Below, in pieces: positions 9,354 through 50,187 of a stretch of DNA of 64,000 nucleotides (position 1 is the first letter of the stretch; the number at the start of each line of letters is the position of its first letter). The position numbers and the translations under genes were made by a program. Source of the stretch: an uncultured Bacilli bacterium (GTDB lineage: Bacteria; Bacillota_I; Bacilli_A; RF39; UBA660). Where the stretch lies: the NCBI GenBank assembly GCA_910584085.1, contig CAJTZY010000006.1:668-64667 (forward strand). Direction: 5' to 3'. The notes beneath the pieces are model-generated. The model was not told the origin of the DNA and did not search any database. It saw only the letters and a list, made by a program, of their open reading frames with translations.

Positions 9354-9379
9354 CTCCAAAATATGTAGGAGCAAATTGC

Positions 9380-9429
9380 TCACCACCTTTCTTTTTTGGA
9401 TTTCCCTTCAAAGAAAAGTGTGCTACACA
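9380..9429 (-). promoter_or_regulatory. TGTAGCAC/AAGGGAA hairpin element, copy G (minus strand)
   Basis: Minus strand reads TGTGTAGCACacttttctttgAAGGGAAAtccaaaaaagaaaGGTGGTGA. It is closely similar to copy E (49693-49730). Confidence 0.6.
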
Positions 9430-9455
9430 TACACCACTTATCACAGATGTATAAG

Positions 9456-35821: not shown

Positions 35822-36690
35822 TGGGATCAATTATATTTAGTTTAATTTTAGTAGTAATAGTTGCTATATGTTTAGGAATAGGAAAAGCACCTGAGGATAG
35901 TGATTGGACTATGACTTGGAAATTTAGAAAAAGAATGATTTGGAGTCTATTGTGCCTATCAATTATACTATTTGGATGCTTTGCAACAATTAAAACAGGT
36001 GAAATTGGAATTAAAACTAGATTTGGTAAAATAGTAAATAGTACCAAAAATGAAGGAATCGTTTTTAAAAGTCCATTTGATAAAGTAGAGAAAATTAATA
36101 TTAAAGTACAAAAATATGAAAACAAAGATGTATTATCAACCTCTACAAAAGATATGCAAATAGTAAATAACATTAAAGTATCTATTAATTATCAAATTGA
36201 CGGAAACAAAGTAGTTGATTTATATAAAAGAGTAGGAACAGGTTATAAAGAAACGGTATTAGAACCAGCTATTCAGGAAACGATTAAAGGTGTTATTTCA
36301 AAATACACATCGGAGGAATTAGTTACAAAAAGAAGTGAGATTTCGCTTGATATAAATAATACACTAGATGAAAGAATTAAAACATATGGTATAAACAGTG
36401 TATCAGTAGCAATTAACAATTTTGATTTTAGTGAGGCGTACAATCAAGCCATCGAACAAAAAGCAGTATCTGAACAAAATGTATTAACAGCACAACAAGA
36501 ATTAGAAAAGGCTAAAGTCGAGGCAGAAAAGAAAGTAGTTGAAGCAGAGGCTACTAATAAAGCTAATGAATTATTAAAACAAAATGTTACTGATGAGGTA
36601 TTAGCAAAACAATTTATCGAAAAATGGAATGGTCAATTGCCAACCACTTATGCTGGTGATGACATATTAAAAATGTTTAATTTAAAATAA
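35821..36690 (+). CDS. SPFH/band-7 (prohibitin-like) membrane protein
   Basis: N-terminal TM, then an SPFH core (GEIGIKTRFGKIV ... TKDMQIVNNIKVSINYQI ... VLEPAIQETIKGVISKYTSEELVTKR ... INNFDFSEAYNQAIEQK) and a coiled-coil tail. Confidence 0.8.
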   Translation: MGSIIFSLILVVIVAICLGIGKAPEDSDWTMTWKFRKRMIWSLLCLSIILFGCFATIKTGEIGIKTRFGKIVNSTKNEGIVFKSPFDKVEKINIKVQKYENKDVLSTSTKDMQIVNNIKVSINYQIDGNKVVDLYKRVGTGYKETVLEPAIQETIKGVISKYTSEELVTKRSEISLDINNTLDERIKTYGINSVSVAINNFDFSEAYNQAIEQKAVSEQNVLTAQQELEKAKVEAEKKVVEAEATNKANELLKQNVTDEVLAKQFIEKWNGQLPTTYAGDDILKMFNLK

Positions 36691-36701
36691 AAATGTAAAA
36701 G

Positions 36702-36734
36702 TGTAGCACTCTCTTAAGGGAAATAGAGAGAGTG
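36702..36734 (+). promoter_or_regulatory. TGTAGCAC/AAGGGAA hairpin element, copy A (upstream of terL)
   Basis: TGTAGCACTCTCTtaAGGGAAAtAGAGAGAGTG. The 8-9-bp stem has a 3' arm that covers the SD, 5 nt before ATG 36740. Confidence 0.65.
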
Positions 36735-36739
36735 ATAAA

Positions 36740-38497
36740 ATGAGTTTAAAAATAGGCGAAAAGATAGAAATCAAAAAGCCACAAGAAAAAACGACCACTA
36801 TGTCACAGACTTTCTTTGATATAGTGGCTGTTTTAAAAAGTAATAAAGTTAGAGAAACGGATAAATTACAATGGTGTCAAAGTCTACTTGCAATATTAGA
36901 AAATTATTACAAAGAAAATGAACTAAAGTCAGTACAAAATGCTAAGAAGTATGCAATACCTGTGCTATATACTTTAACGGAGAAGAGTAGCATGGAAAAC
37001 ATGGCTCTCTTTTTTGATTATTATAAAAAAACATACTGTTTTTGTGCTAGAAGAGATTTTGAATGTTTTGTAGACTATATTGAATGGAATCAACCAAAGA
37101 AAGTATTAGCTAATCGCAGACAAGTATTAAAACCATACGTAGATGCTCTAAATAGAATAGCATTTGATGATAAATTACAATATATTATTGTTTCATATGC
37201 ACCCAGTATGGGTAAGAGTTACCTTGCAACATTATTTACAGCATGGGGATATGGTTTAAGTATAAATAATTCAGTAATCAGAATGTCATACTCTGACGAA
37301 CTCGTACTTGGTTTTAGTAGAACAGTAAAGGGTATTATATCAAGCCCTGAATTTGCGGAAATATTTCCTCTGTTTAAGTTGTATAATGGTAAACCGTTTG
37401 AAGTAGAAAGGGAATCAGACTGGAAAATAAAAAATGCCAATGTCCCTAAATCAAATCATATAGCACGTACCCGTAGTGGTTCTACTACTGGAGAAAGAGC
37501 CTCATTTGCAATTATATTTGACGATATGACAAAGGGAGCAGAGGAGGCTAATAGTGAGAGTATCCATAATGGAATATATGATAAATGGCTTACTGAATGG
37601 TGGAATAGACGTGATGGTCAAAAATGTAAATTTATATTTGTTGGAACTCAATGGACACCAGAAGATATATTGAATAGGGTTATAGAAGATAGAAACAAAG
37701 TATCGCCATTACAAGAAACGGATAATCCGTATGTTATGGAAAGTGAAGATAAATCAACTATAGTTATTCGTGTACCAATGTTAGATAAAGAACATAAAAC
37801 GACATGTCCCGAAGTATACCCACAAGAAATAGCAGAACAAATAGAACAAAATACAGATCCATTTCTATTTAGTTGCGTTTACCAACAAGATCCAATAGCA
37901 CTCACAGGGAGAGAATTAGCTTGGGAATGTTTACAAACATATATAGAACCACCAGAAGATTTAGAGTCATATTGTATGGCTGCTATCGACACTAAACGAA
38001 GAGGTAAAGATAATCTTAATATGTTTATATGTAAACCTGATGGGCATGGTAAACACTATTTATGGGATGCAATATTTACAAAAGAGCCTATGGATAAGTT
38101 ATATGATAAAATAATCGAAAAAATTATATTGCATCATATTACAACCTTAGTTATAGAAAACAATATTGATTTTTCATTAAAAACTTTATTAGAGGATAGA
38201 TTAAAGTTGAGAGGGATTTATTGGTGTAAAATTATAGAACATTATAATACACCTAAAAAAGAGAAAAGAATTATGGATATGTTGTGGCAAATACAAACAT
38301 TAATTATTTTCAAAGATAAATCTATTGTTAAACCAAATACTGATATAGGTAGGCTTATGGAAAATATTACAAAGTATTCATTTGATAAACCAAATGCTTT
38401 TGATGATGGACCTGATGGAAGTGCTTTATACGCTAGTGAAATAATAATGGGTAAGTCTGTATTACCAAAAGCGAAAGCTTGTCGTAGATTATTTTAG
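36740..38497 (+). CDS. terL: terminase large subunit
   Basis: 585 aa. Walker A-like SYAPSMGKSY and Walker B-like AIIFDDM, followed by a nuclease-sized C-terminal domain. Precedes the portal gene. Confidence 0.85.
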   Translation: MSLKIGEKIEIKKPQEKTTTMSQTFFDIVAVLKSNKVRETDKLQWCQSLLAILENYYKENELKSVQNAKKYAIPVLYTLTEKSSMENMALFFDYYKKTYCFCARRDFECFVDYIEWNQPKKVLANRRQVLKPYVDALNRIAFDDKLQYIIVSYAPSMGKSYLATLFTAWGYGLSINNSVIRMSYSDELVLGFSRTVKGIISSPEFAEIFPLFKLYNGKPFEVERESDWKIKNANVPKSNHIARTRSGSTTGERASFAIIFDDMTKGAEEANSESIHNGIYDKWLTEWWNRRDGQKCKFIFVGTQWTPEDILNRVIEDRNKVSPLQETDNPYVMESEDKSTIVIRVPMLDKEHKTTCPEVYPQEIAEQIEQNTDPFLFSCVYQQDPIALTGRELAWECLQTYIEPPEDLESYCMAAIDTKRRGKDNLNMFICKPDGHGKHYLWDAIFTKEPMDKLYDKIIEKIILHHITTLVIENNIDFSLKTLLEDRLKLRGIYWCKIIEHYNTPKKEKRIMDMLWQIQTLIIFKDKSIVKPNTDIGRLMENITKYSFDKPNAFDDGPDGSALYASEIIMGKSVLPKAKACRRLF

Positions 38498-38520
38498 ATA
38501 CTTATTAAGTATCTTTTTTT
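38496..38520 (+). terminator. Rho-independent terminator immediately after terL
   Basis: AGATACTT-att-AAGTATCT followed by T7. The stem starts inside the TAG stop codon. Confidence 0.6.
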
Positions 38521-38592
38521 GTGCAAAAAGGTGAATATTTGTTCTCCTTTTATACCTCAAACCTACCAATATTTCCATATATAGGATATAAA

Positions 38593-38640
38593 TGTAGCCG
38601 AAGGACAAGTTTTTTCCCTTAATAGTCCTTCAGTGCTACA
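38593..38640 (-). promoter_or_regulatory. TGTAGCAC/AAGGGAA element, copy F (consensus on the minus strand)
   Basis: Minus strand: TGTAGCACTgaaggactattAAGGGAAAAAacttgtccttcggctaca. The + strand therefore carries TGTAGCcGAAGGAC ... GTCCTTCaGTGCTACA with loop UUUUUCCCUU. Confidence 0.6.
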
Positions 38641-38726
38641 CGGGAGCATAACCGTAGAATTTATTTTATTGTTGTGTTCCCACATTTTATATTTTGGGAA
38701 TACCAAAGTATGAAAAGTGGTGAAAT

Positions 38727-40301
38727 ATGAAAAACGAAGAAGTAAAACCAACTGAAACAACAGTTGAAAATAATACAAATGCACAATTACCTACTAAAGA
38801 ACCTTATGCACCAAAATATGATGATACAAGGTTATATGGTAGAAAAATAATATATGCAGATTATGAGCCAGAAAATATGAATGCAGAAACAATAACAAAA
38901 ATATTAACTGATGTCTTTAGCATTCATTTGCAAAATTCAAGGGAAATAGATTATTTAGAAAAATATTATAAAGGATTTCAACCAATATTAAACAAAATAA
39001 AAGAAGTACGACCAACTATTAACAACAAAGTAGTTGAAAATAACGCTTATTTCTTAGTTGAGTTTAAAAAATCATTTGTATTTGGTAAACCAATTCAATA
39101 TGTGCAACGTGGAGATGTTGCAAATAAAGAGGTTGGAGCATTAAATAGTTATATGCTAGCAGAGGATAAATATCCTAAAGATACAGAACTAGCAGAAGAT
39201 TTATATATTGCTGGGATTGGACATAGATTAGTTCTTCCAGATATAAATGAAGATAGCCCATTTAGTATAGAAAATTTAGATAGCAAAACTACATTTATTG
39301 TTTATTCTAGTAGTTTACCACATAAAAAATTATTTGGTTGTACTTATACTAGAGGGATTAAAGATATAACAATAAAAGGTAGTATTTATACAAACAATGC
39401 TTTTTATAAATTTACAAGTGGAAGTCCATATAGTGCCTTTGATGTTCAATTTGTTAAATGGCACGTTTTAGGAGATATCCCAATATTTGAATACTTTTTA
39501 CATAAAAAAAGATTAGGAATTATCGAAGTCGTACTAGATTTGCTAAATGACATAAATAGAGTAACTTCTAATGAATTAGATGGGTTGGAACAATATGTAC
39601 AAAGTTTACTTGTATTTATAAATCAAGATATTGACAAAGAAGAATTAGAAAAAATGCTTGAAATGAATGCAGTAAAATTATGGTCTCCTGACCCTGGCAG
39701 AAATGCAGATTTAAAACTAATATCTAATGAAATAAATCATGCAAATACAAAAATCATGCACGATAAGTTATTTAACATGGCTTTAAATATTGTAGGAATA
39801 CCTAAAAATAGTGATAAAGCAAGTGGAGGAGATACAGGACAAGCTAGATATTTAGGTGAAGGTTGGACAATGGCAGATGCAAGAGCAGATGGCGATGAAA
39901 TGGAATTTAAACGTTGTTCTAAGCCTGAACTAAAAATGATACTTAGAATATGTAGACTTGCTCCAAATAGTGAAATAAATACATTAACACTTAAAGATAT
40001 AGACCAAAAATTCACTAGAAATAAATCAGATAATTTCTTAGTTAAATCACAAGGAATGATGAATCAAATTCAAAGTGGTGTATCACCTGATGTTGCAATG
40101 ACAACAAGTGGTTTATATAGTGATCCAAATGAAACATTTAATAAATCAATGGAGTTCTATGGTGGTATAGATAATTGGATTAAATTATTCGTTGGACAAG
40201 CACAAAAACAATTAAATGAAAAGAATAGCGATGGAAGTCCTAACAAGGCGACATCTGCCTCAAAAGATGAGTCTGGAGAGGTTAATAAACAAAAAAGTTA
40301 G
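38727..40301 (+). CDS. portal protein
   Basis: 524 aa, immediately after terL. Size and position are typical of SPP1-type portals. Confidence 0.75.
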   Translation: MKNEEVKPTETTVENNTNAQLPTKEPYAPKYDDTRLYGRKIIYADYEPENMNAETITKILTDVFSIHLQNSREIDYLEKYYKGFQPILNKIKEVRPTINNKVVENNAYFLVEFKKSFVFGKPIQYVQRGDVANKEVGALNSYMLAEDKYPKDTELAEDLYIAGIGHRLVLPDINEDSPFSIENLDSKTTFIVYSSSLPHKKLFGCTYTRGIKDITIKGSIYTNNAFYKFTSGSPYSAFDVQFVKWHVLGDIPIFEYFLHKKRLGIIEVVLDLLNDINRVTSNELDGLEQYVQSLLVFINQDIDKEELEKMLEMNAVKLWSPDPGRNADLKLISNEINHANTKIMHDKLFNMALNIVGIPKNSDKASGGDTGQARYLGEGWTMADARADGDEMEFKRCSKPELKMILRICRLAPNSEINTLTLKDIDQKFTRNKSDNFLVKSQGMMNQIQSGVSPDVAMTTSGLYSDPNETFNKSMEFYGGIDNWIKLFVGQAQKQLNEKNSDGSPNKATSASKDESGEVNKQKS

Positions 40302-40497
40302 AGGATAGAAAGACATTGACTATCGAGGCATGACGATGCTTAAGTGTAGGGAAACCGATTAGATGTGGGAAGTGATGCCCCACCTAACTTTATAGGGTTC
40401 ATAGGGTACGGGACTATGATTAAATACGCTCGAATATCTATTTAAAGATGTGTATTGGTAGCCCAGCCAAAGAAACTTTAGAAGCCTTTGGTCTTAT

Positions 40498-40573
40498 GCT
40501 GAAATAGCTCAATTGGTAGAGCAATTGTTTTGTAAGCAATAGGTTGTGAGTTCAAGTCTTACTTTCAGCACCA
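40498..40573 (+). tRNA. phage tRNA-Thr (anticodon UGU)
   Basis: GCTGAAA-TA-GCTC-aattggta-GAGC-A-ATTGT-TTTGTAA-GCAAT-aggtt-GTGAG-TTCAAGT-CTTAC-TTTCAGC-A-CCA. Confidence 0.85.
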
Positions 40574-40574
40574 T

Positions 40575-40667
40575 GTACGGTTACCCAAGTTTGGCTGAAG
40601 GGGACGATTTACTAAATCGTTAGGGTCCTGAGGGACCGCAAAGGTTCGAATCCTTTACCGTACGCCA
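40575..40667 (+). tRNA. phage type-II tRNA, Ser-like, anticodon ACU (A34)
   Basis: GTACGGT-TA-CCC ... GGG-G-ACGAT-TTACTAA-ATCGT, long variable arm GGTCC-tgag-GGACC, T arm AAAGG-TTCGAAT-CCTTT, acceptor ACCGTAC, discriminator G, CCA. Confidence 0.7.
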
Positions 40668-40898
40668 CAAATTTGATTATAGCTACCTTAATGGTAGTGT
40701 ACTGATGAAATGCATAAATATAGGTGCGACTCCTACGAAGGGTTAGAAGCCCTGCGATTTGTTAGAGTAACGAATTTCATTGGTACAGTGCTATTAAACT
40801 AGCATAAATTTGCTCTGTATACCGAGCATAATGGGTATACCACACTACTGTAGAGACGTGGCTACTATAAAAACGTAATGTGTGGGGAAGGTAATTAT

Positions 40899-41528
40899 AT
40901 GAATGAAATGATTGAAAATGTATTAAGTAATGAAGCTTATACAACAAATGAAGAAAGAGTAGAAGCTATTAAACAAGGTTTAGCGACTTTAGTTATTCCA
41001 AAAGATAAATACAATGATTTATCAACAAAACTAAAGAATACTGAAACAAGTTTAAGTACATTACAAACAGAATATGATGATTTCAAAAAATCCAAAATGA
41101 CAGAGGATGAATTAAGAGAATCTGAAAGAAAAGACTTAGAAGCAAAGCAAAAAAATATTGCTTTAAAAGAAAGTGAGTATGCAGTAAGAGATTTATTTAC
41201 AAATGCTAATATTTCAAAAGAAAAATACGAAAAAATATTAAGCAAAGTGGTAACATCTGATAAAGATAAATCTGTAGAAATTGCACAAACATTTATTGAA
41301 TTGTTAAGTGAAACTGCAGATGAAACAAAAAAGCAAACTGTAACAGATTTATTAAATGATACTCCAAAGCCTACTGTAAGCACTCCAAATAGTGGAACAG
41401 TAAGTAATTTAGATTCTTATAAAGCAAAATATGATGAAGCTGTCAAAAATGGAGATTTCTTAGCACAAACTCAATATATGAGATTAATGCAAGAAGAACA
41501 AATGAAACAAAATAAACCAAATGTTTAA
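40899..41528 (+). CDS. capsid scaffolding protein
   Basis: Lys/Glu-rich coiled-coil protein between the portal and major capsid genes. ATG 40899 (SD GGAAGG) is preferred over the track start 40878. Confidence 0.6.
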   Translation: MNEMIENVLSNEAYTTNEERVEAIKQGLATLVIPKDKYNDLSTKLKNTETSLSTLQTEYDDFKKSKMTEDELRESERKDLEAKQKNIALKESEYAVRDLFTNANISKEKYEKILSKVVTSDKDKSVEIAQTFIELLSETADETKKQTVTDLLNDTPKPTVSTPNSGTVSNLDSYKAKYDEAVKNGDFLAQTQYMRLMQEEQMKQNKPNV

Positions 41529-41534
41529 ATGAAA

Positions 41535-41577
41535 TGTAGCACTCATTAAAAGGGAATAGAAAAATTTTAATGAGGTG
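41535..41577 (+). promoter_or_regulatory. TGTAGCAC/AAGGGAA hairpin element, copy B (upstream of major capsid gene)
   Basis: TGTAGCACTCATTAAAAgggaatagaaaaaTTTTAATGAGgTG. 12-bp stem with one bulged G. The 3' arm contains the SD GAGGTG. Confidence 0.65.
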
Positions 41578-41582
41578 ATAGT

Positions 41583-42629
41583 ATGAATGGAACTGAAACA
41601 GTTCAAAGTTTTAACACATTAAATTATGCTGGATTGTTATATACAAAATCAAATAAGAAAACTCCTTTCTTAAATATGATTTCAGGACACAGAAAATATA
41701 CAAATTCAGTAGAATTTATTACAGGACAATTTTATGAAAATGAAGATGCAGAAATACCAGCAATTAGTGAAACAGCATCATTAACAGCACCAACTGCGTC
41801 ATTCGTAACAAGAAGTCAAAAAACTAATGTTACACAAATCTTTATGGAATCAGTAGCTATTAGTTATGCAAAACAATCTAATATGGGAACATTAAGTGGC
41901 GTAAATATTGCTGGACAAGTTGCAAATCCACAAAATGAATTAGATTTCCAAGTTGCAAGAAAAATGGAAACATTATCAAGAAGTATTGAAAAAACATTTA
42001 TTCAAGGAACTTATAATAAAGCAACATCTGATTCAACAGTTAACAAGACAAGAGGTATGAACGAAGCAATTACTACTAATGTTATTTCAGCAGAAAGTGG
42101 TAGTGGTGCTAGTAAGGTTAATAAACCACTTGATATTTGGTTAATCAATGATGCACAACAAGCAATCTATGATAATCAAGGTGATATTAGTAATTTATAT
42201 TTATGGACTAATACAGTTGGTTTAAATCAATTAAATGCAGATGCCTTAAAATGGGGTATGAAAATGGGAGAACCATATATGAGTTCATACGGTGTACAAG
42301 TATATGATGTAATCTTACCATTAGGTGTAGTACACGTTGCATTAGGTGAATTTATTCCAAGTGGAACAGCATTCTTATTCAATTTTGATGTAATTGGACC
42401 AGTAGAACAACCAGTACCAGGTAAAGGTAATTTCTTCTTAGAAGAATTAGCTAAACAAGGTGCAGGAACTAAATATCAATTATTTGGACAAATTGGATTA
42501 GACCACGGTCCAGAATGGATGCACGCTAAAATCACAGGATTAAAAACTACATTTGATAAACCAGAAGCAGTTAAGGATGTAAAAGTTGTTAATGCTAGTG
42601 ATTTAAAAGCAACAGCACCAAGTGCTTAA
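41583..42629 (+). CDS. major capsid protein
   Basis: 348 aa, directly after the scaffold gene. Assignment by position and size. Confidence 0.7.
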   Translation: MNGTETVQSFNTLNYAGLLYTKSNKKTPFLNMISGHRKYTNSVEFITGQFYENEDAEIPAISETASLTAPTASFVTRSQKTNVTQIFMESVAISYAKQSNMGTLSGVNIAGQVANPQNELDFQVARKMETLSRSIEKTFIQGTYNKATSDSTVNKTRGMNEAITTNVISAESGSGASKVNKPLDIWLINDAQQAIYDNQGDISNLYLWTNTVGLNQLNADALKWGMKMGEPYMSSYGVQVYDVILPLGVVHVALGEFIPSGTAFLFNFDVIGPVEQPVPGKGNFFLEELAKQGAGTKYQLFGQIGLDHGPEWMHAKITGLKTTFDKPEAVKDVKVVNASDLKATAPSA

Positions 42630-42660
42630 TAAAATCTTTTTAAAGTAAGGAAGTGTATTT

Positions 42661-43002
42661 ATGAGTCAAAAAGACCAACTATTAAAAATGCGACTAGAAA
42701 TCTTAGGCGATGTAGCTGATGACACAAAAGATGAAGTGTTTAAAATAAAACTAGATGACGCAGAAGTTGTGGCTCTAAATACACTTTATCCTTATGATTA
42801 TGAACAAAAAGAATTAGACAAAACAAACAAACGATTAATGAATTGGCAAGCAAGATGTGCAATAGAACTGTATAAGAAAATGGGAACTACTAATGTTAAA
42901 TCATATTGTGAGGATAGTTTTTCTGTTACTTATATGACAGGTTTAATATCATCATCACTTATGAATGAATTAAGACCACCAAAGGCAGGCATTCCTAAAT
43001 GA
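42661..43002 (+). CDS. head-tail connector/adaptor protein (putative)
   Basis: Position after the capsid gene. N-terminal LLKMRLEILGDVADDTKDEV resembles gp6-like connector proteins. Confidence 0.5.
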   Translation: MSQKDQLLKMRLEILGDVADDTKDEVFKIKLDDAEVVALNTLYPYDYEQKELDKTNKRLMNWQARCAIELYKKMGTTNVKSYCEDSFSVTYMTGLISSSLMNELRPPKAGIPK

Positions 43003-43376
43003 TAACTGAAATAAATGCAGATCCAAGTAATTGGAAAAAAGATGTCTATATAGCAAGCAAAAAAGAAGTTACTTTAGATGATGAAGGCAACGAAATTGTT
43101 ATATATGACAAACCAAGAAAATTTAGATTCAATTATCAATCAATCAGTTCTAATTCAAATATTGCCGAATTTGGAGAAAACTCCAAAATGATGAAAAAAG
43201 CAGTTATTCCTATATCATATCAAGGACAATTTAAAGAATTTGATGTGGCTTATCTTGACGGTGCAACACCAGAAGGAGAAGAGAATTATGGAGATAATGC
43301 AAACTATAGATTATTACCACCAAGAGATGGTAATTCAGTTATAATTATATATTTTGAAAGACTTACAGGAAAGTAG
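42999..43376 (+). CDS. head closure protein (putative)
   Basis: Assigned by synteny only. Confidence 0.4.
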   Translation: MITEINADPSNWKKDVYIASKKEVTLDDEGNEIVIYDKPRKFRFNYQSISSNSNIAEFGENSKMMKKAVIPISYQGQFKEFDVAYLDGATPEGEENYGDNANYRLLPPRDGNSVIIIYFERLTGK

Positions 43377-43383
43377 GTGCGAT

Positions 43384-43590
43384 ATGTACGAATTTACAAA
43401 TGGAATAGTAGTATTTGATGAAAAAACAAGAGATAGATATATTGAGGCAGGATATAGACTTATTGAGAAAAAAATAGAAACAAAATCTCAAGAACACCCT
43501 GTTGAAATCAACGAGGAGTTAAATGAAAACACTTTTAACAATGGAACTATCAAAAGACAGTCTAAAAAATACAATAAACTATCTAAATAA
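43384..43590 (+). CDS. hypothetical phage protein
   Basis: ATG 43384 after AGGTG. Overlaps the next gene by 68 nt, so one of the two starts is uncertain. Confidence 0.35.
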   Translation: MYEFTNGIVVFDEKTRDRYIEAGYRLIEKKIETKSQEHPVEINEELNENTFNNGTIKRQSKKYNKLSK

Positions 43591-44032
43591 GTTCAAAAGT
43601 GCTTATGAAAAAGGCATAGATAATGCTGTGCTTCATGCAACAGAAATAATGTATGAAAAAGTAAAGCAATATTGCTATGAGGCAGGTATTACTGAACATA
43701 CCAATAATATTTATATGGAGTATGATTATAATACCAAAACTGGTAAAGTTGGTACATCTGATATGGTACTTATCTTTAATGAGATGGGGACAGGTATTAC
43801 TGGTGCTAATAATCCACATCCTAATCCATCACCAAATTTCCAATCATGGAAATATGATGTAAATGAACATGGTGAAAAAGGTTGGTATTATCCAAAAGAA
43901 GATGGTACTTATGGTTGGACTAAAGGTTTACCTAGTAGGCATATGTTCTATGATGCCTTCAATGATATTAAAGATGAAATTGGAGATATTGTAGAAGTTG
44001 AATTGCGAAAGACAGTAGGTGATTTATATTGA
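43523..44032 (+). CDS. neck/tail-joining protein (HK97 gp10-like, putative)
   Basis: SD GAGGAG. Assigned by synteny. Confidence 0.4.
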   Translation: MKTLLTMELSKDSLKNTINYLNKFKSAYEKGIDNAVLHATEIMYEKVKQYCYEAGITEHTNNIYMEYDYNTKTGKVGTSDMVLIFNEMGTGITGANNPHPNPSPNFQSWKYDVNEHGEKGWYYPKEDGTYGWTKGLPSRHMFYDAFNDIKDEIGDIVEVELRKTVGDLY

Positions 44033-44472
44033 TAGTAGAAAATTTATTTGATACAAAGTTCTATCCAGAACAAAAACAATATGTTGAAACTAAATCAATA
44101 TATAAACCACATGTAACAAAAGCAATGCCACAGAACAGTAAAGACTTCCCAATAGTACCAACAAAATTATTGCCTGTAAAAAATCAATATGGCAATTTGA
44201 GTTATGGTGAAGAAAGATATTCATTTGGTATTGAGATTAATGTATATGCACAAGACGATACTATCAATGGCAAAAAAGTATCTAAAAGGACTATTTGTAA
44301 TGAAATAACAAGCCATGTAGTTGATTATTACAAGACTAATTATAGAGTTACTGTTAAGACAACTTTAGATGCTCCAAATGTAGACAGTAATGTACATAGA
44401 AATATTATAAGAATAACTGGTGTCTTAGACACAAAATATGGATTAGATAACTTGGTTATTTATCCAAATTAA
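44029..44472 (+). CDS. tail completion/terminator protein (putative)
   Basis: Assigned by synteny only. Confidence 0.35.
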   Translation: MIVENLFDTKFYPEQKQYVETKSIYKPHVTKAMPQNSKDFPIVPTKLLPVKNQYGNLSYGEERYSFGIEINVYAQDDTINGKKVSKRTICNEITSHVVDYYKTNYRVTVKTTLDAPNVDSNVHRNIIRITGVLDTKYGLDNLVIYPN

Positions 44473-44477
44473 AATGA

Positions 44478-44521
44478 TGTAGCACTTCAAATATAAAGGG
44501 GAAAAATTTATATGAGAGGTG
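44478..44521 (+). promoter_or_regulatory. TGTAGCAC/AAGGGAA hairpin element, copy C (upstream of major tail gene)
   Basis: TGTAGCACTTCAAATATAAAggggaaaaATTTATATGAGAGGTG. 6 bp plus 7 bp around a 2-nt internal mismatch. The 3' arm ends in the SD GAGGTG. Confidence 0.6.
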
Positions 44522-44528
44522 AAAGAAA

Positions 44529-44990
44529 ATGAACGAAACAGATGCAAAAGGATTACTAGATTTAGGCGTTGAAATACGTATCAAAAATCATGGAGAAGCA
44601 AAATATCCAAAAGAACCATTAGCAGGCGTAACATCAATACCAGCTACTGGACAAGCAGGTGGAACTATAGATGTAACAACATTTAGTGACCCTGTAAAAG
44701 TATATATTCCAGATAGACCAGATACTGGAGATATGGATTATGAATATATTTATACATTAATAAAATATAACGCAGTTAAAGCATATTGCGATAACACAGC
44801 AAAAGATATATTAATTAAATATCCAGAAGGTGATGGTGCTGAATATACAGGTATTTGTCAAACATGGAGAAATGAAAAATCTGTTGGTAGTGATGCATTA
44901 AAAGCTACATTACATACAGTGCCAAGTACATTAATTGTTGATAAAACAAAAGATGAAGTATCAGCATTAATATCAACAACAGCTGAATAA
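44529..44990 (+). CDS. major tail (tube) protein
   Basis: 153 aa, upstream of the chaperone pair and tape measure. Confidence 0.55.
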   Translation: MNETDAKGLLDLGVEIRIKNHGEAKYPKEPLAGVTSIPATGQAGGTIDVTTFSDPVKVYIPDRPDTGDMDYEYIYTLIKYNAVKAYCDNTAKDILIKYPEGDGAEYTGICQTWRNEKSVGSDALKATLHTVPSTLIVDKTKDEVSALISTTAE

Positions 44991-45009
44991 AAGAAAGTAG
45001 GGAAAATAA

Positions 45010-45345
45010 ATGAGAAAATTAAAATTAAAAATCAATGATAAAGATTATACTCTAGAAATGAATAGGGATACAATTAAATGGCTAGAAAATTATGATTTTT
45101 CCTTAGAAGAATTTATAAAGAAGCCAGTAACATATTATGATTTGCTATGGACTAGTTTATTTTTGGTAAATCATCAAGATGTAAATCCAAATTTAGCAAT
45201 GAAGTTGATGGAAACCTATGGTGAAAACCATAAAGTTGCTAAAGTTATTAATTTTGCTATAGAAGAATACAAAACTTTTATGAATGCCCTATCCGATATA
45301 AACTCAGAGAAGAGCGACGAGGAACTAGAGATAATCGAAGCATAG
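45010..45345 (+). CDS. tail assembly chaperone (G-like)
   Basis: Position immediately upstream of the tape measure gene. Confidence 0.55.
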   Translation: MRKLKLKINDKDYTLEMNRDTIKWLENYDFSLEEFIKKPVTYYDLLWTSLFLVNHQDVNPNLAMKLMETYGENHKVAKVINFAIEEYKTFMNALSDINSEKSDEELEIIEA

Positions 45346-45395
45346 ATGAAGAACAAGGCAAAAAATATAAGAACTTAACAGATTGGTTTTATGAT

Positions 45396-45776
45396 TTGTT
45401 GCCTATGGCGATAACATACGGTATGTCTGTGAAAGAGTTTTGGGAAGATGACCCTAACTTATTCTGGGCATACCGTTTTTCTTATTATGAACGATTAAAA
45501 ACGCAACAAGAAATATTTAATAATAATGCATGGCTTCAAGGAGCATATTTTCATGAAGCAGTTTCTGTAGCATTATGCAATGCTTTTAGTAAAACAAAAG
45601 TAGAATACTCAAAGCATCCTTATGGATTTAATGAAAATAAGGCTATTACAGAGGAAGAAAAGCAAAAAGTAGTGCAATCATATGCTAGTGAAATAAAAGC
45701 TCGTATATCGCAAGTAAATGCTATCAGGAATGGGGCAGAACAACAAGTAGTAATAAAAGGAAAAAGTAGAGTGTAG
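45396..45776 (+). CDS. second tail-chaperone ORF (T-like)
   Basis: Its reading frame (-1 relative to 45010-45345) is open from 45252. The mode of expression is unresolved. Confidence 0.4.
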   Translation: MLPMAITYGMSVKEFWEDDPNLFWAYRFSYYERLKTQQEIFNNNAWLQGAYFHEAVSVALCNAFSKTKVEYSKHPYGFNENKAITEEEKQKVVQSYASEIKARISQVNAIRNGAEQQVVIKGKSRV

Positions 45777-45816
45777 CACTTACCTAAAAGGGAAAATTTA
45801 CCAATAAAGGTAGGTG
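45772..45816 (+). promoter_or_regulatory. TGTAGCAC/AAGGGAA hairpin element, copy D (upstream of tape measure gene)
   Basis: TGTAGCACTTACCTaaaagggaaaatttaccaataaAGGTAGGTG. 9-bp stem with one G-U pair. The TAG inside the motif is the stop codon of the upstream ORF. Confidence 0.6.
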
Positions 45817-45822
45817 AAATAA

Positions 45823-48800
45823 ATGAATGAACAAACAATAGAAATGCAGATACGTGCTAAAGCACAAGAAGCATTACAAAGTTTAAATAAATTAACAAGT
45901 CAATTAACAGGTGTTGAAAAGAAAATTGATGGTGTCAAAACAACAATCGACAAAGTATCGACAACTAAAGCAAGAAATGAAATGAATAGTTTAAATAGTT
46001 CCATCGAAAAAGCATCAAAAAGTATGGAAAAATTTAAAAATTTATTCACGTTTGTTGGTGCTAAAAGATTAACAAAAACAGCATTAGGTTGGATGAATGA
46101 AGCAATAGATTATACAGAACAATTAAACTTATTTAATGTAGTATTTAAAAATATAGAAAAAAATGGTACCACAATGTATTCTAATCTTGGAAAAGAAGCA
46201 GTAAAATATCAAAATAAACTAAACGAAGCATTTGGTACAAATAAAACTCAATCATTATATACACAAGCAATTTATCAATCAATGGCTGAAAATCAAGGTA
46301 TTAGTGATTATTATTCAAAAATCATGTCTGAAACAATGACCAATTTTACGTATGATTTAGCATCTTTATATAATAAAAGTGATAAAACAACAGCAGAAGC
46401 CTTAAGAGCAAGCGTCTTTGCTGGAATGACAAAACCTGCTAGAAATTACGGTTTGGATGTTACACAACAATCAATGCAGCCAATATTAACAGAATTAGGC
46501 ATAGATAAACAAGTAAAAGAATTATCTCAAGGTGAGAAAATGATATTGAGATATATTACTGTATTAAAACAAGGACAGGTTGCTATGGCGGACTTTGCAT
46601 CTACCGTTGAATCTCCTTCAAACCAATTAAAAATATTTAGACAACAATTAGTAGAGGCTAAAGTAGCAATGTCATCATTATTTATAGGTGGACTAGCTAA
46701 TATATTACCATATGCAAACGCATTCTTAATGGTAGTAAAAGAAGTATCAAAAGCAATAGCTGATATGTTTGGTATCAAATTGGTTGACTACAACAGTGGT
46801 ATTGCAAGTCAAGAAGATGCCTTTGTCGATTTAGGTGACAGTGTAGATGATGCAATAGGTAAAGTAAAAGAACTAAAAAGACAAACACTTGGATTTGATG
46901 AAATTCACAATATTAATGAAAACAAGGATAGTGGAAGTGGGACAAGCATATCAGGTGGAATAGACCAACGATTATTAGATGCAATTAAAGGCTATGACAA
47001 TGGTATGGATAAAGTAAGAATGAAAGCTACAGAAATAAGAGATAGAATTATGGAATGGCTAGGTTTTACAAAAGAAATAGACCCATTAACGGGTGAAATT
47101 GGATTTAAATATCAAGGCATGAAAACAACATTAAAAAATGTTTGGACAAGTTTTAAAAATTTGAATACACAAGGAAAGATATTAGTCGGATTAGGATTAG
47201 TAACTGGTGCATTAAAATTATGGAATGCTGGTAAGAAACTAACTACGGTATTAGGAAGTACTGGTTTAGTTAAAGTTATTAAAAATTTAATTACTCCATT
47301 TAAAAACTTAACAGAGTATACAAGAGTTTATACATCAATAACAGGAACTTTAAAAGATGGCATAATTGGTGGAATAGATGCTTGGAGAAAGCAAAGCGGA
47401 ATAATATCAGAAACTACGGGTAAATTTACTGGATGGACAAGTATAGTAAATGGTGGAAAAATTGCTCTTGAAGGGCTTGTTACAGCAGGATTAGGTTTAT
47501 ATACAGTACATGAATCAATGAAAAATTTATCAACAGAGGGATTTAATCTTGCAAATGCACTTGGCTTAGTTGGTGGTAGTATAACAACTATAGCAAGTGG
47601 TGTACAAATAGGTGCTATATTTGGACCGTGGGGTGCAGCCATAGGTGGTGCGGTAGGTGCTGTAGCAGATTTGATTAGTATATTGGATGGGTATGAAACA
47701 CAATCAGAAAAAACAAGAAATGAAATAAATAAAACTATTGATAAAACAAAAGCATATTCAGAATCCTTGATAGAACAACACAATAATATTGATGAAGAAT
47801 TACAAAAACAAACAGCATTATCAAATGCACATCAAAATTTATTAAATGAATTGCAAGAAATAACAGATGCTAATGGGAGAATTAAGGTTGGATATGAAGA
47901 ACGAGCAAGTTTTATTGTTACAACATTAAATAATGCATATGGAACTGAGATTAAAATAGTAGATAACGTTATTCAAAAATATGATGAACAAATATCAAAA
48001 ATAAAAAGTTTAATAGATGAAAAAAAGAAAGAACTTTATTTGTCTAAAGCAGAGGAATCATACAATTTGGCAATTGAGAAAAGAGCAGAAACATATGAAA
48101 ATTTAAAAGAAGCAAATGATGCTTATTTAAAATCTTTGAAAGCTCAAACTGATATGGAAGAAAAGTATAGAAAGCAATGGGAAAAAATACCTAGTTTAAT
48201 AAAATCGTGGTATGGTTCATTTGAAAGATATCTTGATAAAGAGTCAAAAGCGGTAAATGATGATTATTATAAACTTGTAGAAACAGCTAACAAAGCGAAG
48301 ATAAATCTGGATGAAGCAACATCTGCATATGATTCAAATACAAAAGCAATAATGAATTATAATGGATTATTATCTGCAGATACAGAGGAAAATTCAGAAC
48401 TTATCAATTACTATATGAATGAAATTGATAAAAGATATAATGAATCTGAAAATAATATAAAAGATACTTATTCAAAACAATTAGAAGATGCCAAAGAATA
48501 TTATGAATCAGTTATTAGAATATCAGGTGAAAGTGAATCCTCAATGAGCGAAACAACACGTGCTGAAGCAGAGTCAAGATATAATTCAGTAATTTCAGCT
48601 TTAAAAAATGAACTTAATTATATTAATGGAACTACAGACGAAACAGCACAAGCTTGGTATACATTATCCAAATCAAGTAAAGATAAGTTTTTAGAGAATT
48701 TTAATCAATTACCAGAAGATATACAACAACAAGTAATAGATAAGATGTATTCTAAAGGATATTCAATAAGTCAAGAATTACAAAATGGTATAAATGCTAA

Positions 48801-49227: not shown

Positions 49228-49230
49228 AAT

Positions 49231-49650: not shown

Positions 49651-49692
49651 TCTCCTTATCTACTTAAAGTATATCAAAAAATATAAAAAATG

Positions 49693-49730
49693 TGTAGCAC
49701 TTTCTTTCAAAGGGAAATTGAAAGATGGTG
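49693..49730 (+). promoter_or_regulatory. TGTAGCAC/AAGGGAA hairpin element, copy E (upstream of distal tail gene)
   Basis: TGTAGCACTTTCTTTCAAagggaaaTTGAAAGATGGTG. 13 positions with one mismatch and one G-U pair. The 3' arm holds the SD GGTG. Confidence 0.65.
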
Positions 49731-49735
49731 AAGTT

Positions 49736-50179: not shown

Positions 50180-50187
50180 GTGAAGTT

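What the first reader, a model, noticed from the sequence alone, without database searches (positions are those of the whole stretch)
38496..38727. Terminator right after terL, plus an inverted copy of the element presenting the complementary loop upstream of the portal gene
A good intrinsic terminator (AGATACTT-att-AAGTATCT then T7, 38496-38520) separates terL from the portal gene. This is unusual inside a packaging/head operon.

The 200-nt spacer then contains copy F of the element in inverted orientation. On the minus strand it reads TGTAGCACT ... AAGGGAAAAA, matching the consensus. On the transcribed + strand it forms a hairpin, TGTAGCcGAAGGAC ... GTCCTTCaGTGCTACA, whose loop is UUUUUCCCUU. 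That loop is complementary to the AAGGGAAA loops of the other copies.

This suggests two testable ideas:
- loop-loop (kissing) pairing in trans between the portal leader and the other late leaders
- a DNA-level inverted site used by a regulator that must also overcome the terL terminator, in an antitermination-like way
Basis: partly seen in the sequence, partly recalled or inferred. Interest (0 to 1): 0.6.

Follow-up and report, generated by a model that had tools for sequence, protein, structure and literature searches.

The report
Phage anti-leader RNA before portal gene
Between the terminase and portal genes, this gut prophage and its relatives carry a conserved small RNA module. Its exposed loop and tail are complementary to the leader hairpins that mask the ribosome-binding sites of the main virion genes, so it probably pairs with them.

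Summary
Both sequence features are real.

**Terminator after terL.** The hairpin plus U-run at the terL stop (38496-38520) is only a modest terminator (-6.2 kcal/mol, 2 G-C pairs). A second hairpin follows at 38526-38555. A loose scan finds a hairpin plus T-run after terL in 50 of 56 distinct relatives; many are weak.

**Copy F.** Every related phage (gut and rumen phages of small-genome uncultured Bacilli) has exactly one inverted copy, just 5' of the portal gene. It stays with the portal gene when other genes are inserted after terL.

**Strand and structure.** Covariation shows a plus-strand RNA: 14 of 19 pairs have compensatory changes, with 115 G.U cells against 10 A.C. The module is about 90 nt:
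- a 5' hairpin with loop UUUUUUCCCUU
- single-stranded AGUGCUACA
- a second hairpin that scores as an intrinsic terminator in relatives

One relative has a tool-called sigma-70 promoter directly upstream.

**Complementarity.** The loop and tail complement the loop and 5' flank of the late-gene leader hairpins. In those leaders, CACU masks the Shine-Dalgarno sequence. One lineage changed both F segments and two leaders compensatorily. A distant clade shows another A-U to G-C swap.

**Best reading.** F is a same-strand "anti-leader" RNA that pairs with late leaders and frees their ribosome sites. No transcript data exist, and the direction of control is inferred. The DNA-site/antitermination idea is not supported.

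The parts
36659..36688 (+). Predicted sigma-70-type promoter (ATGACA-18-TAAAAT) just upstream of terL leader copy A
   Evidence: Consensus scan, 10 of 12 matches. A consensus match only, not shown to function.
36702..36734 (+). Leader copy A (terL): UGUAGCACU, hairpin with AAGGGAAAU loop, AGUGA Shine-Dalgarno in the 3' arm. Predicted target of F.
   Evidence: -12.0 kcal/mol. Cofolding with F leaves the Shine-Dalgarno unpaired.
36740..38497 (+). terL (large terminase subunit, 585 aa)
   Evidence: ORF. Pfam terminase RNaseH-like nuclease domain. 77 relatives at 55-87% identity.
38496..38520 (+). T1: 8-bp A/U-rich hairpin overlapping the terL stop codon, followed by a T run. A modest intrinsic-terminator candidate.
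   Evidence: -6.2 kcal/mol, z = -2.9. Not called by the consensus scan, which needs at least 3 G-C pairs. The same extra hairpin is present in L015, L026 and L077.
38526..38555 (+). T1b: second hairpin (38526-38551) running into the conserved box TTTTATAC (38548-38555)
   Evidence: -8.1 kcal/mol. A hairpin with varying stem sequence plus TTTTA[TG]AC is present in most relatives. The box ends exactly 43 nt before the first paired base of P1 in 26 of 37 box-bearing sequences (46 distinct examined).
38587..38592 (+). -10-like hexamer TATAAA, 6-7 nt before the base of P1. Candidate promoter of the F RNA; no -35 in this phage.
   Evidence: Read from the sequence. At the same position L095 has TTGACA-17-TAAACT with TG, called by the scan. 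L069, L072 and L074 have TTGACA/TTGAAA/TTGAAG-17-TATAAA by eye. Inference only for the window.
38600..38631 (+). P1, the 'copy F' hairpin: arms 38600-38606 and 38625-38631, with an 18-nt loop
   Evidence: Fold. All 8 P1 pairs vary; 7 of them show changes on both sides. 97% of cells are paired in 43 distinct relatives.
38610..38620 (+). Seed 1: loop sequence UUUUUUCCCUU, complementary to the AAGGGAAA loops of the leaders
   Evidence: Nearly invariant columns. Longest Watson-Crick run with cognate leader loops averages 7.3 nt against 4.9 nt for shuffled loops. The L005 lineage has UUUUCCUU and its leaders have AAGGAAA.
38632..38640 (+). Seed 2: single-stranded AGUGCUACA, exact complement of the leaders' UGUAGCACU
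   Evidence: GTGCTA is invariant. Positions 2-7 form Watson-Crick pairs with all 63 leaders examined. Trans compensatory changes are seen in L005/L014 and in the distant clade.
38642..38681 (+). P2: GGGAGCAUAAC...GUUGUGUUCCC hairpin (-18.5 kcal/mol), terminator-like
   Evidence: Covariation on 11 pairs and two conserved G.U pairs. Called an intrinsic terminator in L013, L065 and L095. Stability figures.
38682..38695 (+). U-rich tail after P2 (ACAUUUUAUAUUUU), which is also the 5' arm of the next hairpin
   Evidence: Across 43 distinct relatives, the 12 nt after P2 hold 7.5 T on average, against about 4 expected from composition.
38685..38715 (+). P3b: leader-like hairpin with GGGAAUA at its tip, ending just before the portal Shine-Dalgarno
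   Evidence: Minimum-free-energy folds of the window and most long-type relatives. Heterogeneous among relatives; covariation not tested.
38719..38723 (+). Portal Shine-Dalgarno, GGUGA
   Evidence: conserved (G/U)GGUGA in relatives.
38727..40301 (+). Portal gene (524 aa, SPP1 Gp6-like)
   Evidence: Pfam PF05133, E = 2e-55.
41535..41577 (+). Leader copy B (major capsid gene)
   Evidence: Capsid identified by Pfam SU10_MCP.
44478..44521 (+).
45772..45816 (+). Leader copy D (1134-aa tape-measure-sized gene). The UAG inside the 9-mer is the stop codon of the upstream ORF.
49693..49730 (+). Leader copy E (gene starting at 49733)
9372..9427 (-). Copy G: the same leader element on the minus strand in the immunity region. 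It sits ahead of a 32-35 aa ORF, inside a promoter (9509-9481) to terminator (9259-9217) unit.
   Evidence: Strongest predicted pairing with F (ddG -11.7 kcal/mol).

Best explanation
**What it is.** Copy F is not a stray inverted repeat. It is the 5' hairpin (P1) of a conserved plus-strand RNA module of about 90 nt that heads the portal transcription unit.

**Layout.**
- terL is closed off by one or two terminator hairpins (T1, T1b).
- Next comes a weak or activator-dependent promoter.
- Then P1, which presents UUUUUUCCCUU in a large loop.
- Then the single-stranded AGUGCUACA.
- Then a stable hairpin, P2, followed by a U-rich tract.
- Then the portal ribosome-binding site.

**How the RNA is made.** It is produced either as a discrete small RNA ending at P2, or as the 5' part of the portal mRNA when P2 is read through.

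**What it does.** Its two exposed segments base-pair with the two conserved segments of the leader hairpins in front of terL, the capsid gene, two tail-region genes and the tape-measure-sized gene (and copy G). The loop pairs with the leader loop as a kissing contact. The tail pairs with the 5' flank UGUAGCACU. The last four bases of that flank (CACU) are what hold the leaders' Shine-Dalgarno GGUG in the stem. Pairing should therefore expose the ribosome-binding site and switch on, or synchronise, translation of the virion genes.

**What is shown and what is inferred.**
- Shown: conservation, plus-strand RNA structure, complementarity, masking of the Shine-Dalgarno, and compensatory changes in trans.
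- Inferred: that the RNA accumulates, that pairing occurs in the cell, and that its effect is activation.
For: 1. **Position.** One F copy per phage, always on the + strand just 5' of the portal gene. A covariance model hits once in 42 of 79 capsid-anchored sources and once in each of the 51 sources searched next. It hits once in the window's own genome and in 6 of 301 genomes of the order.
2. **F travels with the portal gene.** When genes are inserted after terL, the terminators and F stay with the portal gene.
3. **Structure.** 97.2% of cells are paired and 14 of 19 pairs show changes on both sides. 0 of 500 shuffles reach this, and slid controls give 38-55% paired.
4. **Strand.** 115 G.U cells against 10 A.C on the + strand. 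Read on the minus strand, only 84% would pair.
5. **Seeds are conserved while stems vary.** The loop and flank are the invariant parts.
6. **Leaders mask their own ribosome site.** In 75 of 81 distinct leaders the Shine-Dalgarno is paired in the minimum-free-energy fold. In 73 of them the partner is the CACN of the 9-mer.
7. **Energetics.** Cofolding predicts that the F tail pairs with UGUAGCACU at ddG -8 to -12 kcal/mol and leaves the Shine-Dalgarno unpaired in all six leaders.
8. **Trans covariation, L005/L014 lineage.**
   - F has GUGCUAUA and UUUUCCUU.
   - The capsid and tail leaders have UAUAGCACU and AAGGAAA.
   - The unchanged terL leader still pairs through G.U wobbles.
   - Cognate duplexes score -19 kcal/mol against -14 kcal/mol with the canonical F.
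9. **Trans covariation, other lineages.**
   - In the distant clade, F begins GGUGCUAC and leaders end UAGCACC, an A-U to G-C swap.
   - L095 has CCCC in the F loop and GGGG in the leader loop.
10. **Co-occurrence.** F and leaders occur together in 38 loci and are both absent in 25. The exceptions are artefacts.
11. **It looks like a small-RNA gene.**
    - L095 has a called TTGACA-17-TAAACT promoter abutting P1, and P2 there is called an intrinsic terminator.
    - P2 is also called a terminator in L013 and L065.
    - A tRNA-Trp gene lies between P2 and the portal start in L069, L070 and L074.
Against: - **No transcript evidence.** The only RNA-labelled run holds three tiny undirected contigs, and the other RNA run has no reads.
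- **Weak promoter in this phage.** The window has no consensus promoter in the spacer. The -10-like box lacks the usual final T.
- **Possible self-masking.** If transcripts start further upstream, the window's own UGUAGC (38593-38598) masks the tail. Predicted ddG then falls to -2 to -7 kcal/mol, no better than shuffled controls.
- **Modest energetic margin.** Even the favourable ddG values overlap the extreme of the shuffled controls.
- **Few independent covariation events.** The trans covariation rests on about three lineages. It would also fit concerted change of one DNA motif.
- **Stoichiometry.** One RNA would have to serve five or more abundant mRNAs.
- **An alternative route to opening the leaders.** Ribosomes finishing the upstream ORFs could open the leader hairpins without any RNA partner.
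- **Variable stem lengths.** Stems range from 5 to 14 bp, so simultaneous loop and flank pairing is geometrically uncertain.
Confidence: 0.5

Rival explanations
1. The pairing is real, but F is the regulated party. The late leaders (or the immunity-region RNA carrying copy G) bind the F loop or tail. This changes folding of the portal leader: P2 termination, the P2/P3 alternative, or access to the portal Shine-Dalgarno. Portal and downstream head-gene expression would then be tuned to the level of other late mRNAs, or blocked in the lysogen.
For: - P2 is terminator-like and lies only one base after the tail seed.
- The segment GUUCCC can pair either with GGGAGC (P2) or with the downstream GGGAA.
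- Many minimum-free-energy folds pair GCUAC of the tail with the portal GUGGU.
- Copy G lies in a unit with a strong predicted promoter and shows the best predicted pairing with F.
Against: - The tail-to-portal-SD helix is not kept in the distant clade, where the SD is GGAGG.
- A tRNA gene separates P2 from the portal start in three relatives. This argues that F-P2 is not an integral part of portal translation control.
- This reading does not explain why every leader masks its own Shine-Dalgarno with exactly the segment that F complements.
Confidence: 0.2
2. The element is a double-stranded DNA site for a phage regulator. F is the same site in the opposite orientation, placed to act on transcription across the terL-portal junction.
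For: - At the DNA level F and the leaders are the same motif.
- The concerted changes in the L005 lineage (TATAGCAC plus GGA in F and two leaders) would also fit a change of protein specificity.
- The hairpin T1b and its box lie at a fixed 43 nt from P1, which suggests promoter-like architecture.
Against: - The stems between the two conserved boxes covary instead of being conserved, with 115 G.U against 10 A.C on the + strand. This is selection on an RNA helix of one strand.
- The spacing between the 9-mer and GGGAA varies from 5 to 13 nt.
- The leaders' 3' arm contains the Shine-Dalgarno.
- In L005 the terL leader kept the ancestral motif. G.U wobble tolerates this in RNA, but a protein with altered specificity would not.
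Confidence: 0.07
3. F is a genuine copy of the leader element that functions on the minus strand, as the start of an antisense transcript or small RNA opposite the terL-portal junction.
For: - In the window the minus-strand hairpin folds well (-19.9 kcal/mol).
- The minus strand reads the full consensus TGTAGCACT...AAGGGAAAAA.
- T1 and T1b are symmetric enough to terminate leftward transcripts.
Against: - Across relatives, the minus-strand version of the stems would carry A.C mismatches, up to 4 per stem. Only 84% of cells would pair, against 97% on the + strand.
- No Shine-Dalgarno or ORF follows it on the minus strand.
- No minus-strand promoter is called next to it.
- The adjacent P2 also has G.U pairs specific to the + strand.
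Confidence: 0.04
4. F is a functionless inverted duplicate or a small mobile repeat that happened to land before the portal gene. The complementarity has no role.
For: Short repeated hairpin elements do spread in either orientation in many bacterial genomes (general knowledge, not tested here).
Against: - Exactly one inverted copy, always at the same place, in phages whose terL is only 55-60% identical.
- The seeds are invariant while the stems covary.
- Compensatory changes occur in trans.
- F and the leaders co-occur strictly.
Confidence: 0.02

Closest known systems
c4 antisense RNA of phages P1 and P7, acting on the icd-ant mRNA (own knowledge; listed as a prototype in the review PMC12197685)
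   Same: - A phage-encoded RNA made from the same strand as its target.
- Two short exposed segments pair with two separate segments of the target next to the ribosome-binding site.
- It is released from a longer transcript.
   Different: - c4 represses a single target and serves immunity. Here there are five or more targets, all major virion genes, and pairing is predicted to expose the ribosome site rather than block it.
- There is no sequence or structure similarity. The Rfam 15 scan gave no hit on the F module.
CI RNA of satellite phage P4, pairing with seqA and seqC (own knowledge)
   Same: A same-strand phage RNA with several complementary target sites on transcripts of the same element.
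   Different: - P4 CI causes premature transcription termination for immunity.
- Its targets are not leaders that mask a Shine-Dalgarno sequence.
- It is unrelated in sequence.
CopA-CopT of plasmid R1 and related kissing-loop antisense systems (CopA/CopT listed in PMC5415839; the mechanism is from own knowledge)
   Same: Recognition combines a loop-loop contact with pairing of an adjacent single-stranded segment.
   Different: - CopA is encoded opposite its target and is fully complementary to it. Here the stems of F and of the leaders are unrelated, and only loop and flank match.
- CopA is a repressor.
Anti-antisense activation by small RNAs: DsrA/RprA on rpoS, RNAIII on hla, VR-RNA on colA of Clostridium perfringens. 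Synthetic toehold switches work the same way (own knowledge).
   Same: - The target mRNA folds so that its own 5' segment masks the Shine-Dalgarno.
- The small RNA pairs with that 5' segment and frees the site.
- This matches the leader fold and the cofold prediction.
   Different: - Those RNAs act on one or a few host genes.
- Here a phage RNA would address a whole set of structural genes through a shared 9-nt toehold plus a loop contact.
- Activation is not shown here.
StxS and lambda 6S RNA: short late-leader transcripts ended at a terminator that act as small RNAs (PMC7547250, listed)
   Same: A short RNA generated by termination in the leader of a phage late transcription unit, with a trans-acting role.
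   Different: - StxS comes from the PR' promoter and tR' terminator, ahead of all late genes.
- It acts on stx1 and rpoS, not on a family of leader hairpins in the phage's own virion genes.

Membership tests
Rho-independent (intrinsic) terminator: T1 at 38496-38520 | Stable, usually G+C-rich stem-loop | tested here: inconclusive
   8-bp stem with only 2 G-C pairs; -6.2 kcal/mol, z = -2.9. Not called by the consensus scan, which needs 3 G-C pairs. A/U-rich terminators are plausible in a 27% G+C genome.
Rho-independent (intrinsic) terminator: T1 at 38496-38520 | Run of U directly after the stem, downstream of a stop codon on the transcribed strand | tested here: met
   Six T at 38515-38520 follow the stem. 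The stem starts inside the terL stop codon. A loose hairpin plus T-run scan is positive after terL in 50 of 56 distinct relatives, many of them weak.
Rho-independent (intrinsic) terminator: T1 at 38496-38520 | Transcripts actually end there | not testable with these tools
   No usable RNA reads.
Rho-independent terminator: P2 at 38642-38681 | Stable stem-loop followed by a U-rich tract | tested here: met
   -18.5 kcal/mol in the window. The 12-nt tails of 43 relatives hold 7.5 T on average. The scan calls the homologous hairpin a terminator in L095, L013 and L065. The window's own tail (ACAUUUUAUAUU) is weaker, and its long apical part escapes the scan.
Same-strand phage antisense RNAs (P1/P7 c4 type) | Regulator and targets are encoded on the same strand of the same phage | tested here: met
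   F, P2 and leaders A-E are all + strand RNA features.
Same-strand phage antisense RNAs (P1/P7 c4 type) | Two short exposed segments complementary to two segments of the target at its ribosome-binding region | tested here: met
   Loop against loop (mean 7.3-nt run) and tail against flank (positions 2-7 Watson-Crick in 63 of 63). The flank includes the CACU that pairs with the Shine-Dalgarno.
Same-strand phage antisense RNAs (P1/P7 c4 type) | Accumulates as a discrete small RNA | tested here: inconclusive
   Promoter plus terminator in L095. A tRNA directly follows P2 in three relatives. There is no RNA data for any member.
Same-strand phage antisense RNAs (P1/P7 c4 type) | Sequence or structure homology to the described family | tested here: not met
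   No Rfam 15 family matches the F module at gathering score or at E up to 5. It is therefore not filed as a member, only as working in a similar way.
Anti-antisense activating small RNAs (DsrA-rpoS type) | The target leader masks its own Shine-Dalgarno with an upstream segment | tested here: met
   Shine-Dalgarno paired in 75 of 81 distinct leaders, and paired to CACN of the 9-mer in 73.
Anti-antisense activating small RNAs (DsrA-rpoS type) | The small RNA pairs with that upstream segment and frees the site | tested here: met
   In silico only. Cofolding gives ddG -8 to -12 kcal/mol, with the Shine-Dalgarno unpaired in all six complexes.
Anti-antisense activating small RNAs (DsrA-rpoS type) | Translation rises when the small RNA is present | not testable with these tools
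   Needs reporter assays.
Kissing-loop antisense pairs encoded on opposite strands (CopA-CopT type) | Full complementarity, because both RNAs come from the same DNA segment | tested here: not met
   The stems of F and of each leader are unrelated; only loop and flank match.
Double-stranded DNA operator used in both orientations | Conserved boxes at fixed spacing, with no strand-specific RNA signal | tested here: not met
   Spacing varies from 5 to 13 nt. The stems covary with 115 G.U against 10 A.C.

The most novel reading that the evidence does not exclude
A natural "toehold-switch regulon". One phage small RNA, made from its own promoter between the terminase and portal genes, is the master key for virion production. 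It unlocks the self-masked ribosome-binding sites of all major virion genes (terminase, capsid, tail, tape measure, baseplate) through a shared 9-nt toehold plus a kissing loop.

A leader-like decoy RNA from the immunity region (copy G) may hold this key in check in the lysogen. That would make late-gene timing and immunity in this phage group partly RNA-based rather than protein-based.
Probability: 0.3. Interest if true: 0.85.

Novelty: new variant of a known kind. Interest (0 to 1): 0.68.

Why it matters
- **A new layer of late-gene control.** Phage late-gene control is normally explained by protein activators, sigma factors or antiterminators. An RNA that coordinates translation of the whole virion gene set would be a new layer of control. 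The 2025 review of phage small RNAs lists none acting on capsid or portal genes.
- **A widespread but unstudied phage group.** The module occurs in a clade of phages of uncultured small-genome gut Bacilli found in human, mouse, rabbit and ruminant samples. It is absent from Rfam.
- **Directly testable.** Nature has already supplied a compensatory pair: the L005 variant of F together with its variant leaders.
- **A possible engineering part.** It is a compact natural design (9-nt toehold, kissing loop, masked Shine-Dalgarno) that could be reused as an orthogonal translational switch.
- **Annotation.** terL, the portal gene and the following blocks appear to be separate, individually gated units rather than one late operon.

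Tried and rejected
- **Known RNA families.** Rfam 15 at gathering score on the whole window, and at E up to 5 on 36000-50500, gave nothing on F or the leaders. The only hits were ROOL, skipping-rope and tRNAs.
- **Close annotated phage.** blastn against INPHARED matched only the tRNAs.
- **Transcript evidence.** Two run searches and one read-laying were made.
  - The single RNA-labelled run (X25) holds three short undirected contigs at depth 2-4, one of which covers 38625-38774.
  - The raw-read RNA run has no reads.
  - Nothing can be concluded.
- **More lineages with altered seeds.**
  - A 16-mer scan of viral contigs returned only known relatives plus chance hits in unrelated high-G+C contigs.
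It returned a single chance match.
- **Leader peptide.** A peptide starting at the ATG or GTG before TGTAG is consistent in only 2 copies, so this was rejected.
- **Partner for the invariant CGGGAGCATAACCGTA.** No complementary sequence exists elsewhere in the window. Its conservation is explained only partly by P2.
- **Resemblance to 16S rRNA.** From memory, GUGCUACA resembles a conserved 16S rRNA segment. The genome bin returns no match to that 16S motif, so this could not be tested. It is treated as coincidence.
- **Invertible DNA segment.** Inversion between copy A and F by the phage recombinase was rejected. The shared sequence is too short, inversion would uncouple terL from its promoter, and the signal is at the RNA level.
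- **Minus-strand ORF 38563-38784 (73 aa).** Its start lies upstream of the element. The spacer has indels among relatives. It was not pursued.
- **P3 region of the portal leader.** Two overlapping helices are possible. The relatives are too heterogeneous for a covariation test.

Full report
**The sequence as described**

The window is 26.7% G+C. It carries a prophage whose terL (36740-38497), portal (38727-40301) and major capsid (41583-42629) genes are confirmed by Pfam.

The terL stop codon TAG lies at 38495-38497. It overlaps an 8-bp hairpin, AGATACTT-att-AAGTATCT, followed by six more T. As RNA this hairpin (T1) folds at -6.2 kcal/mol, z = -2.9. It has only two G-C pairs and is not called by the consensus terminator scan. 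It is a plausible but modest terminator.

A second hairpin, T1b, lies at 38526-38551 (-8.1 kcal/mol) and runs into the box TTTTATAC (38548-38555).

Copy F is as described:
- P1 arms at 38600-38606 and 38625-38631
- an 18-nt loop containing TTTTTTCCCTT
- AGTGCTACA at 38632-38640

On the minus strand F reads TGTAGCACT...AAGGGAAAAA.

The element family is far beyond chance. TGTAGC-N5-35-AAGGGAAA gives 5 matches against 0.02 expected. The + strand copies at 36702, 41535, 44478, 45772 and 49693 each end in a GGTGA or AGTGA Shine-Dalgarno followed by ATG. The whole 250-nt spacer folds with z = -7.25.

**Relatives**

Protein-anchored searches produced two sets of loci:
- terL found 77 related loci in gut and rumen metagenome-assembled genomes labelled as uncultured Bacilli, and in IMG/VR contigs.
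- The capsid protein gave 78 further loci of about 21 kb.

The terL-portal spacer keeps a length of about 190-210 nt and the same order of parts in 53 distinct sequences.

The inverted orientation of F is kept in essentially all of them. This includes phages whose terL is only 55-60% identical and phages that lack a + copy upstream of terL.

In seven loci other genes have been inserted between terL and portal (L001, L010, L026, L041, L042, L070, L077). There the terminator hairpins and F stay next to the portal gene, at the usual 90-100 nt from its start. F therefore belongs to the portal unit, not to the terL 3' end.

**It is a plus-strand RNA**

I built a covariance model of P1, the tail and the following hairpin P2. 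Its hits were:
- exactly one strong hit per related phage, always on the + strand before the portal gene
- one hit in the window's own genome
- hits in 6 of 301 genomes of the same order, all in one family

On the model-based alignment of 43 distinct sequences:
- 97.2% of cells form pairs.
- 14 of 19 pairs show changes on both sides.
- No shuffle out of 500 reaches the observed values.
- Slid controls give 38-55% paired.

The helices contain 115 G.U cells and only 10 A.C cells. Read on the minus strand, only 84% of cells would pair. A cruder count on the leaders showed the opposite polarity for elements read in their own orientation. Selection has therefore acted on F as an RNA hairpin of the strand that also encodes the late genes. 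This excludes a minus-strand copy of the leader and argues against a purely DNA-level site.

**Anatomy of the module**

The invariant parts are the loop (UUUCCCUU) and the tail (GUGCUAC). The P1 stem changes freely.

P2 (38642-38681, GGGAGCAUAAC...GUUGUGUUCCC, -18.5 kcal/mol) also covaries, including in the most distant clade. A U-rich tract follows it: 7.5 T on average in the next 12 nt across 43 relatives, against about 4 expected. The scan tool calls the homologous hairpin an intrinsic terminator in L095, L013 and L065.

Promoter evidence upstream of P1:
- L095 has a called promoter, TTGACA-17-TAAACT with TG, ending at the first base of the F hit.
- L069, L072 and L074 show TTGACA/TTGAAA/TTGAAG-17-TATAAA-7-G(P1) by eye.
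- The window has only a -10-like TATAAA (38587-38592) at the same position, and no -35.
- The T1b box ends exactly 43 nt before P1 in 26 of 37 box-bearing sequences (46 distinct examined), although the spacer sequence diverges. This suggests a constrained promoter architecture, perhaps dependent on an activator.

In L069, L070 and L074 a tRNA-Trp gene sits between P2 and the portal start. F-P2 can therefore be separated from the portal ribosome site and behaves like an RNA gene.

Taken together, the module has the layout of a bacterial small RNA: a 5' hairpin, a single-stranded seed and a terminator. It could equally be a leader that ends prematurely at P2.

**The targets**

In 81 distinct leaders from the window and its relatives, the first four bases of the Shine-Dalgarno are paired in the minimum-free-energy fold in 75. 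In 73 the partner is the CACN at the end of the conserved 9-mer. The segment that F complements is therefore the one that masks the ribosome site.

Cofolding the window's F (from 38600) with each of its six leaders gives these results:
- The tail pairs with UGUAGCACU over 7-10 bp.
- ddG is -8 to -12 kcal/mol, against shuffled means of -3 to -6.
- The Shine-Dalgarno is left unpaired while the upper leader hairpin is kept.

If the RNA also contains the window's upstream UGUAGC (38593-38598), the tail is masked and ddG drops to -2 to -7 kcal/mol. The position of the RNA's 5' end therefore matters.

Loop-loop complementarity averages a 7.3-nt Watson-Crick run in 91 distinct cognate pairs, against 4.9 nt for shuffled loops.

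**Covariation in trans**

Positions 2-7 of the tail pair by Watson-Crick rules with all 63 leaders examined. Three lineages depart from the consensus, and each does so in a complementary way.

- **L005/L014.**
  - F has GUGCUAUA (C to U) and the loop UUUUCCUU (CCC to UCC).
  - Its capsid and tail leaders have UAUAGCACU (G to A) and AAGGAAA (GGG to GGA).
  - Its terL leader kept the ancestral letters and still pairs through two G.U wobbles.
  - Summed seed duplex energies are about -19 kcal/mol for all three cognate pairs. The variant leaders score only -14 kcal/mol with the canonical F.
- **The most distant clade.** F begins GGUGCUAC and most leaders end UAGCACC, an A-U to G-C swap.
- **L095.** The F loop has CCCC and the capsid leader loop has GGGG.

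The route seen in L005 is the classic path of compensatory RNA evolution: first C to U in the regulator, tolerated as a wobble, then G to A in the targets.

F and the leaders also co-occur strictly: 38 loci have both and 25 have neither. The few exceptions are regex false positives or truncated loci.

**What this means for the terminator**

terL has its own predicted promoter just upstream of leader A (36659-36688). A loose hairpin plus T-run scan is positive after terL in 50 of 56 distinct relatives. The clearest examples, 9-10 bp stems with U5-7, are in the distant clade, and many others are weak.

The terL-portal junction is therefore best read as the end of one unit and the start of the next. 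It is not an obstacle inside one operon that needs antitermination. The terminator with more regulatory interest is P2, which lies inside the portal leader, one base after the tail seed.

**Mechanism and its limits**

I commit to the following model. The F-P2 RNA pairs through loop and tail with the late leaders, in trans or over long range on a shared transcript. Pairing releases their Shine-Dalgarno sequences.

| Claim | My estimate |
|---|---|
| Pairing occurs | about 0.65 |
| The effect is activation | about 0.4 |
| Overall statement | 0.5 |

The main rival keeps the pairing but reverses the roles. In that reading the leaders, or the immunity-region RNA carrying copy G, act on F to set P2 termination or portal translation.

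Copy G (9427-9372, minus strand) is a bona fide leader of a 32-35 aa ORF. It lies inside a unit running from a promoter (TTGACT-17-TACAAT) to a terminator. It has the best predicted pairing with F, so it could be a further target or a decoy.

No transcript data could be obtained. All functional steps are therefore inferences.

**Comparison with known systems**

The module works most like three things:
- the same-strand antisense RNAs of P1/P7 (c4) and P4 (CI)
- anti-antisense activators such as DsrA on rpoS or VR-RNA on colA
- recognition geometry reminiscent of CopA-CopT

It is not a member of any described family. Rfam 15 has no match. A 2025 review of phage small RNAs lists none acting on capsid or portal genes. 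I rate it a new variant of a known kind of regulation.

Noticed in passing
window 38642-38695: A strong hairpin (-18.5 kcal/mol) followed by a U-rich tract sits inside the portal leader, 45 nt before the portal ATG. The homologous hairpin is called an intrinsic terminator in three relatives. Portal expression may therefore need read-through of this site.
   Followed up: partly
window 9217-9509 (minus strand): Copy G of the leader element lies in a leftward unit in the immunity region: promoter TTGACT-17-TACAAT, then the element, then a 32-35 aa ORF (9386/9377-9279), then a terminator (9259-9217). The unit is upstream of the XRE-type repressor gene (8992-8642). It shows the strongest predicted pairing with F.
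   Followed up: partly
window 40294-40664: A skipping-rope RNA (Rfam RF02924, 43 bits) and two tRNA genes lie directly after the portal gene, before the scaffold-position gene. ROOL RNA is at 19096-19736. This phage is unusually rich in non-coding RNAs.
   Followed up: no
L069 5239-5312, L074 1136-1209, L070 4870-4943: In the most distant clade a tRNA-Trp(CCA) gene is inserted between the F-P2 module and the portal start. L068 and L072 carry a different insert of about 150 nt at the same place, containing a T-arm-like GGTTCGTGACC.
   Followed up: partly
L001 4693-6321; also L010, L026, L041, L042, L070, L077: The spot directly after the terL stop codon, upstream of the terminators, is a hotspot for inserted genes. 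L001 carries an XRE-like HTH gene on the opposite strand and a 248-aa protein that resembles an antirepressor by eye. The inserts were not annotated further.
   Followed up: no
window 38548-38555 and relatives: The box TTTTA[TG]AC after hairpin T1b ends exactly 43 nt before the first paired base of P1 in 26 of 37 box-bearing sequences (46 distinct examined), although the intervening sequence differs strongly. The T1b loop also keeps a motif like AAYATTTGTT. This could be a regulator site or a promoter element as well as a terminator.
   Followed up: partly
window 36701-36706, 41534-41539, 44477-44482, 45771-45776, 49692-49697: In the TGTAGCACT copies the preceding base is always A or G. The motif therefore begins with a start codon directly followed by a stop codon (ATG-TAG or GTG-TAG). 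At 45774-45776 the TAG is the real stop of the upstream ORF. A preceding G also extends pairing with F to 10 bp. Variants such as AGTAGCACT and AATAGCACT lack the start codon.
   Followed up: partly
window 38633-40 (GTGCTACA): From memory, this 8-mer equals a universally conserved 16S rRNA segment (...CACGUGCUACAAUGG...). The genome bin returns no match to that motif, so host identity could not be checked. Probably a coincidence.
   Followed up: partly
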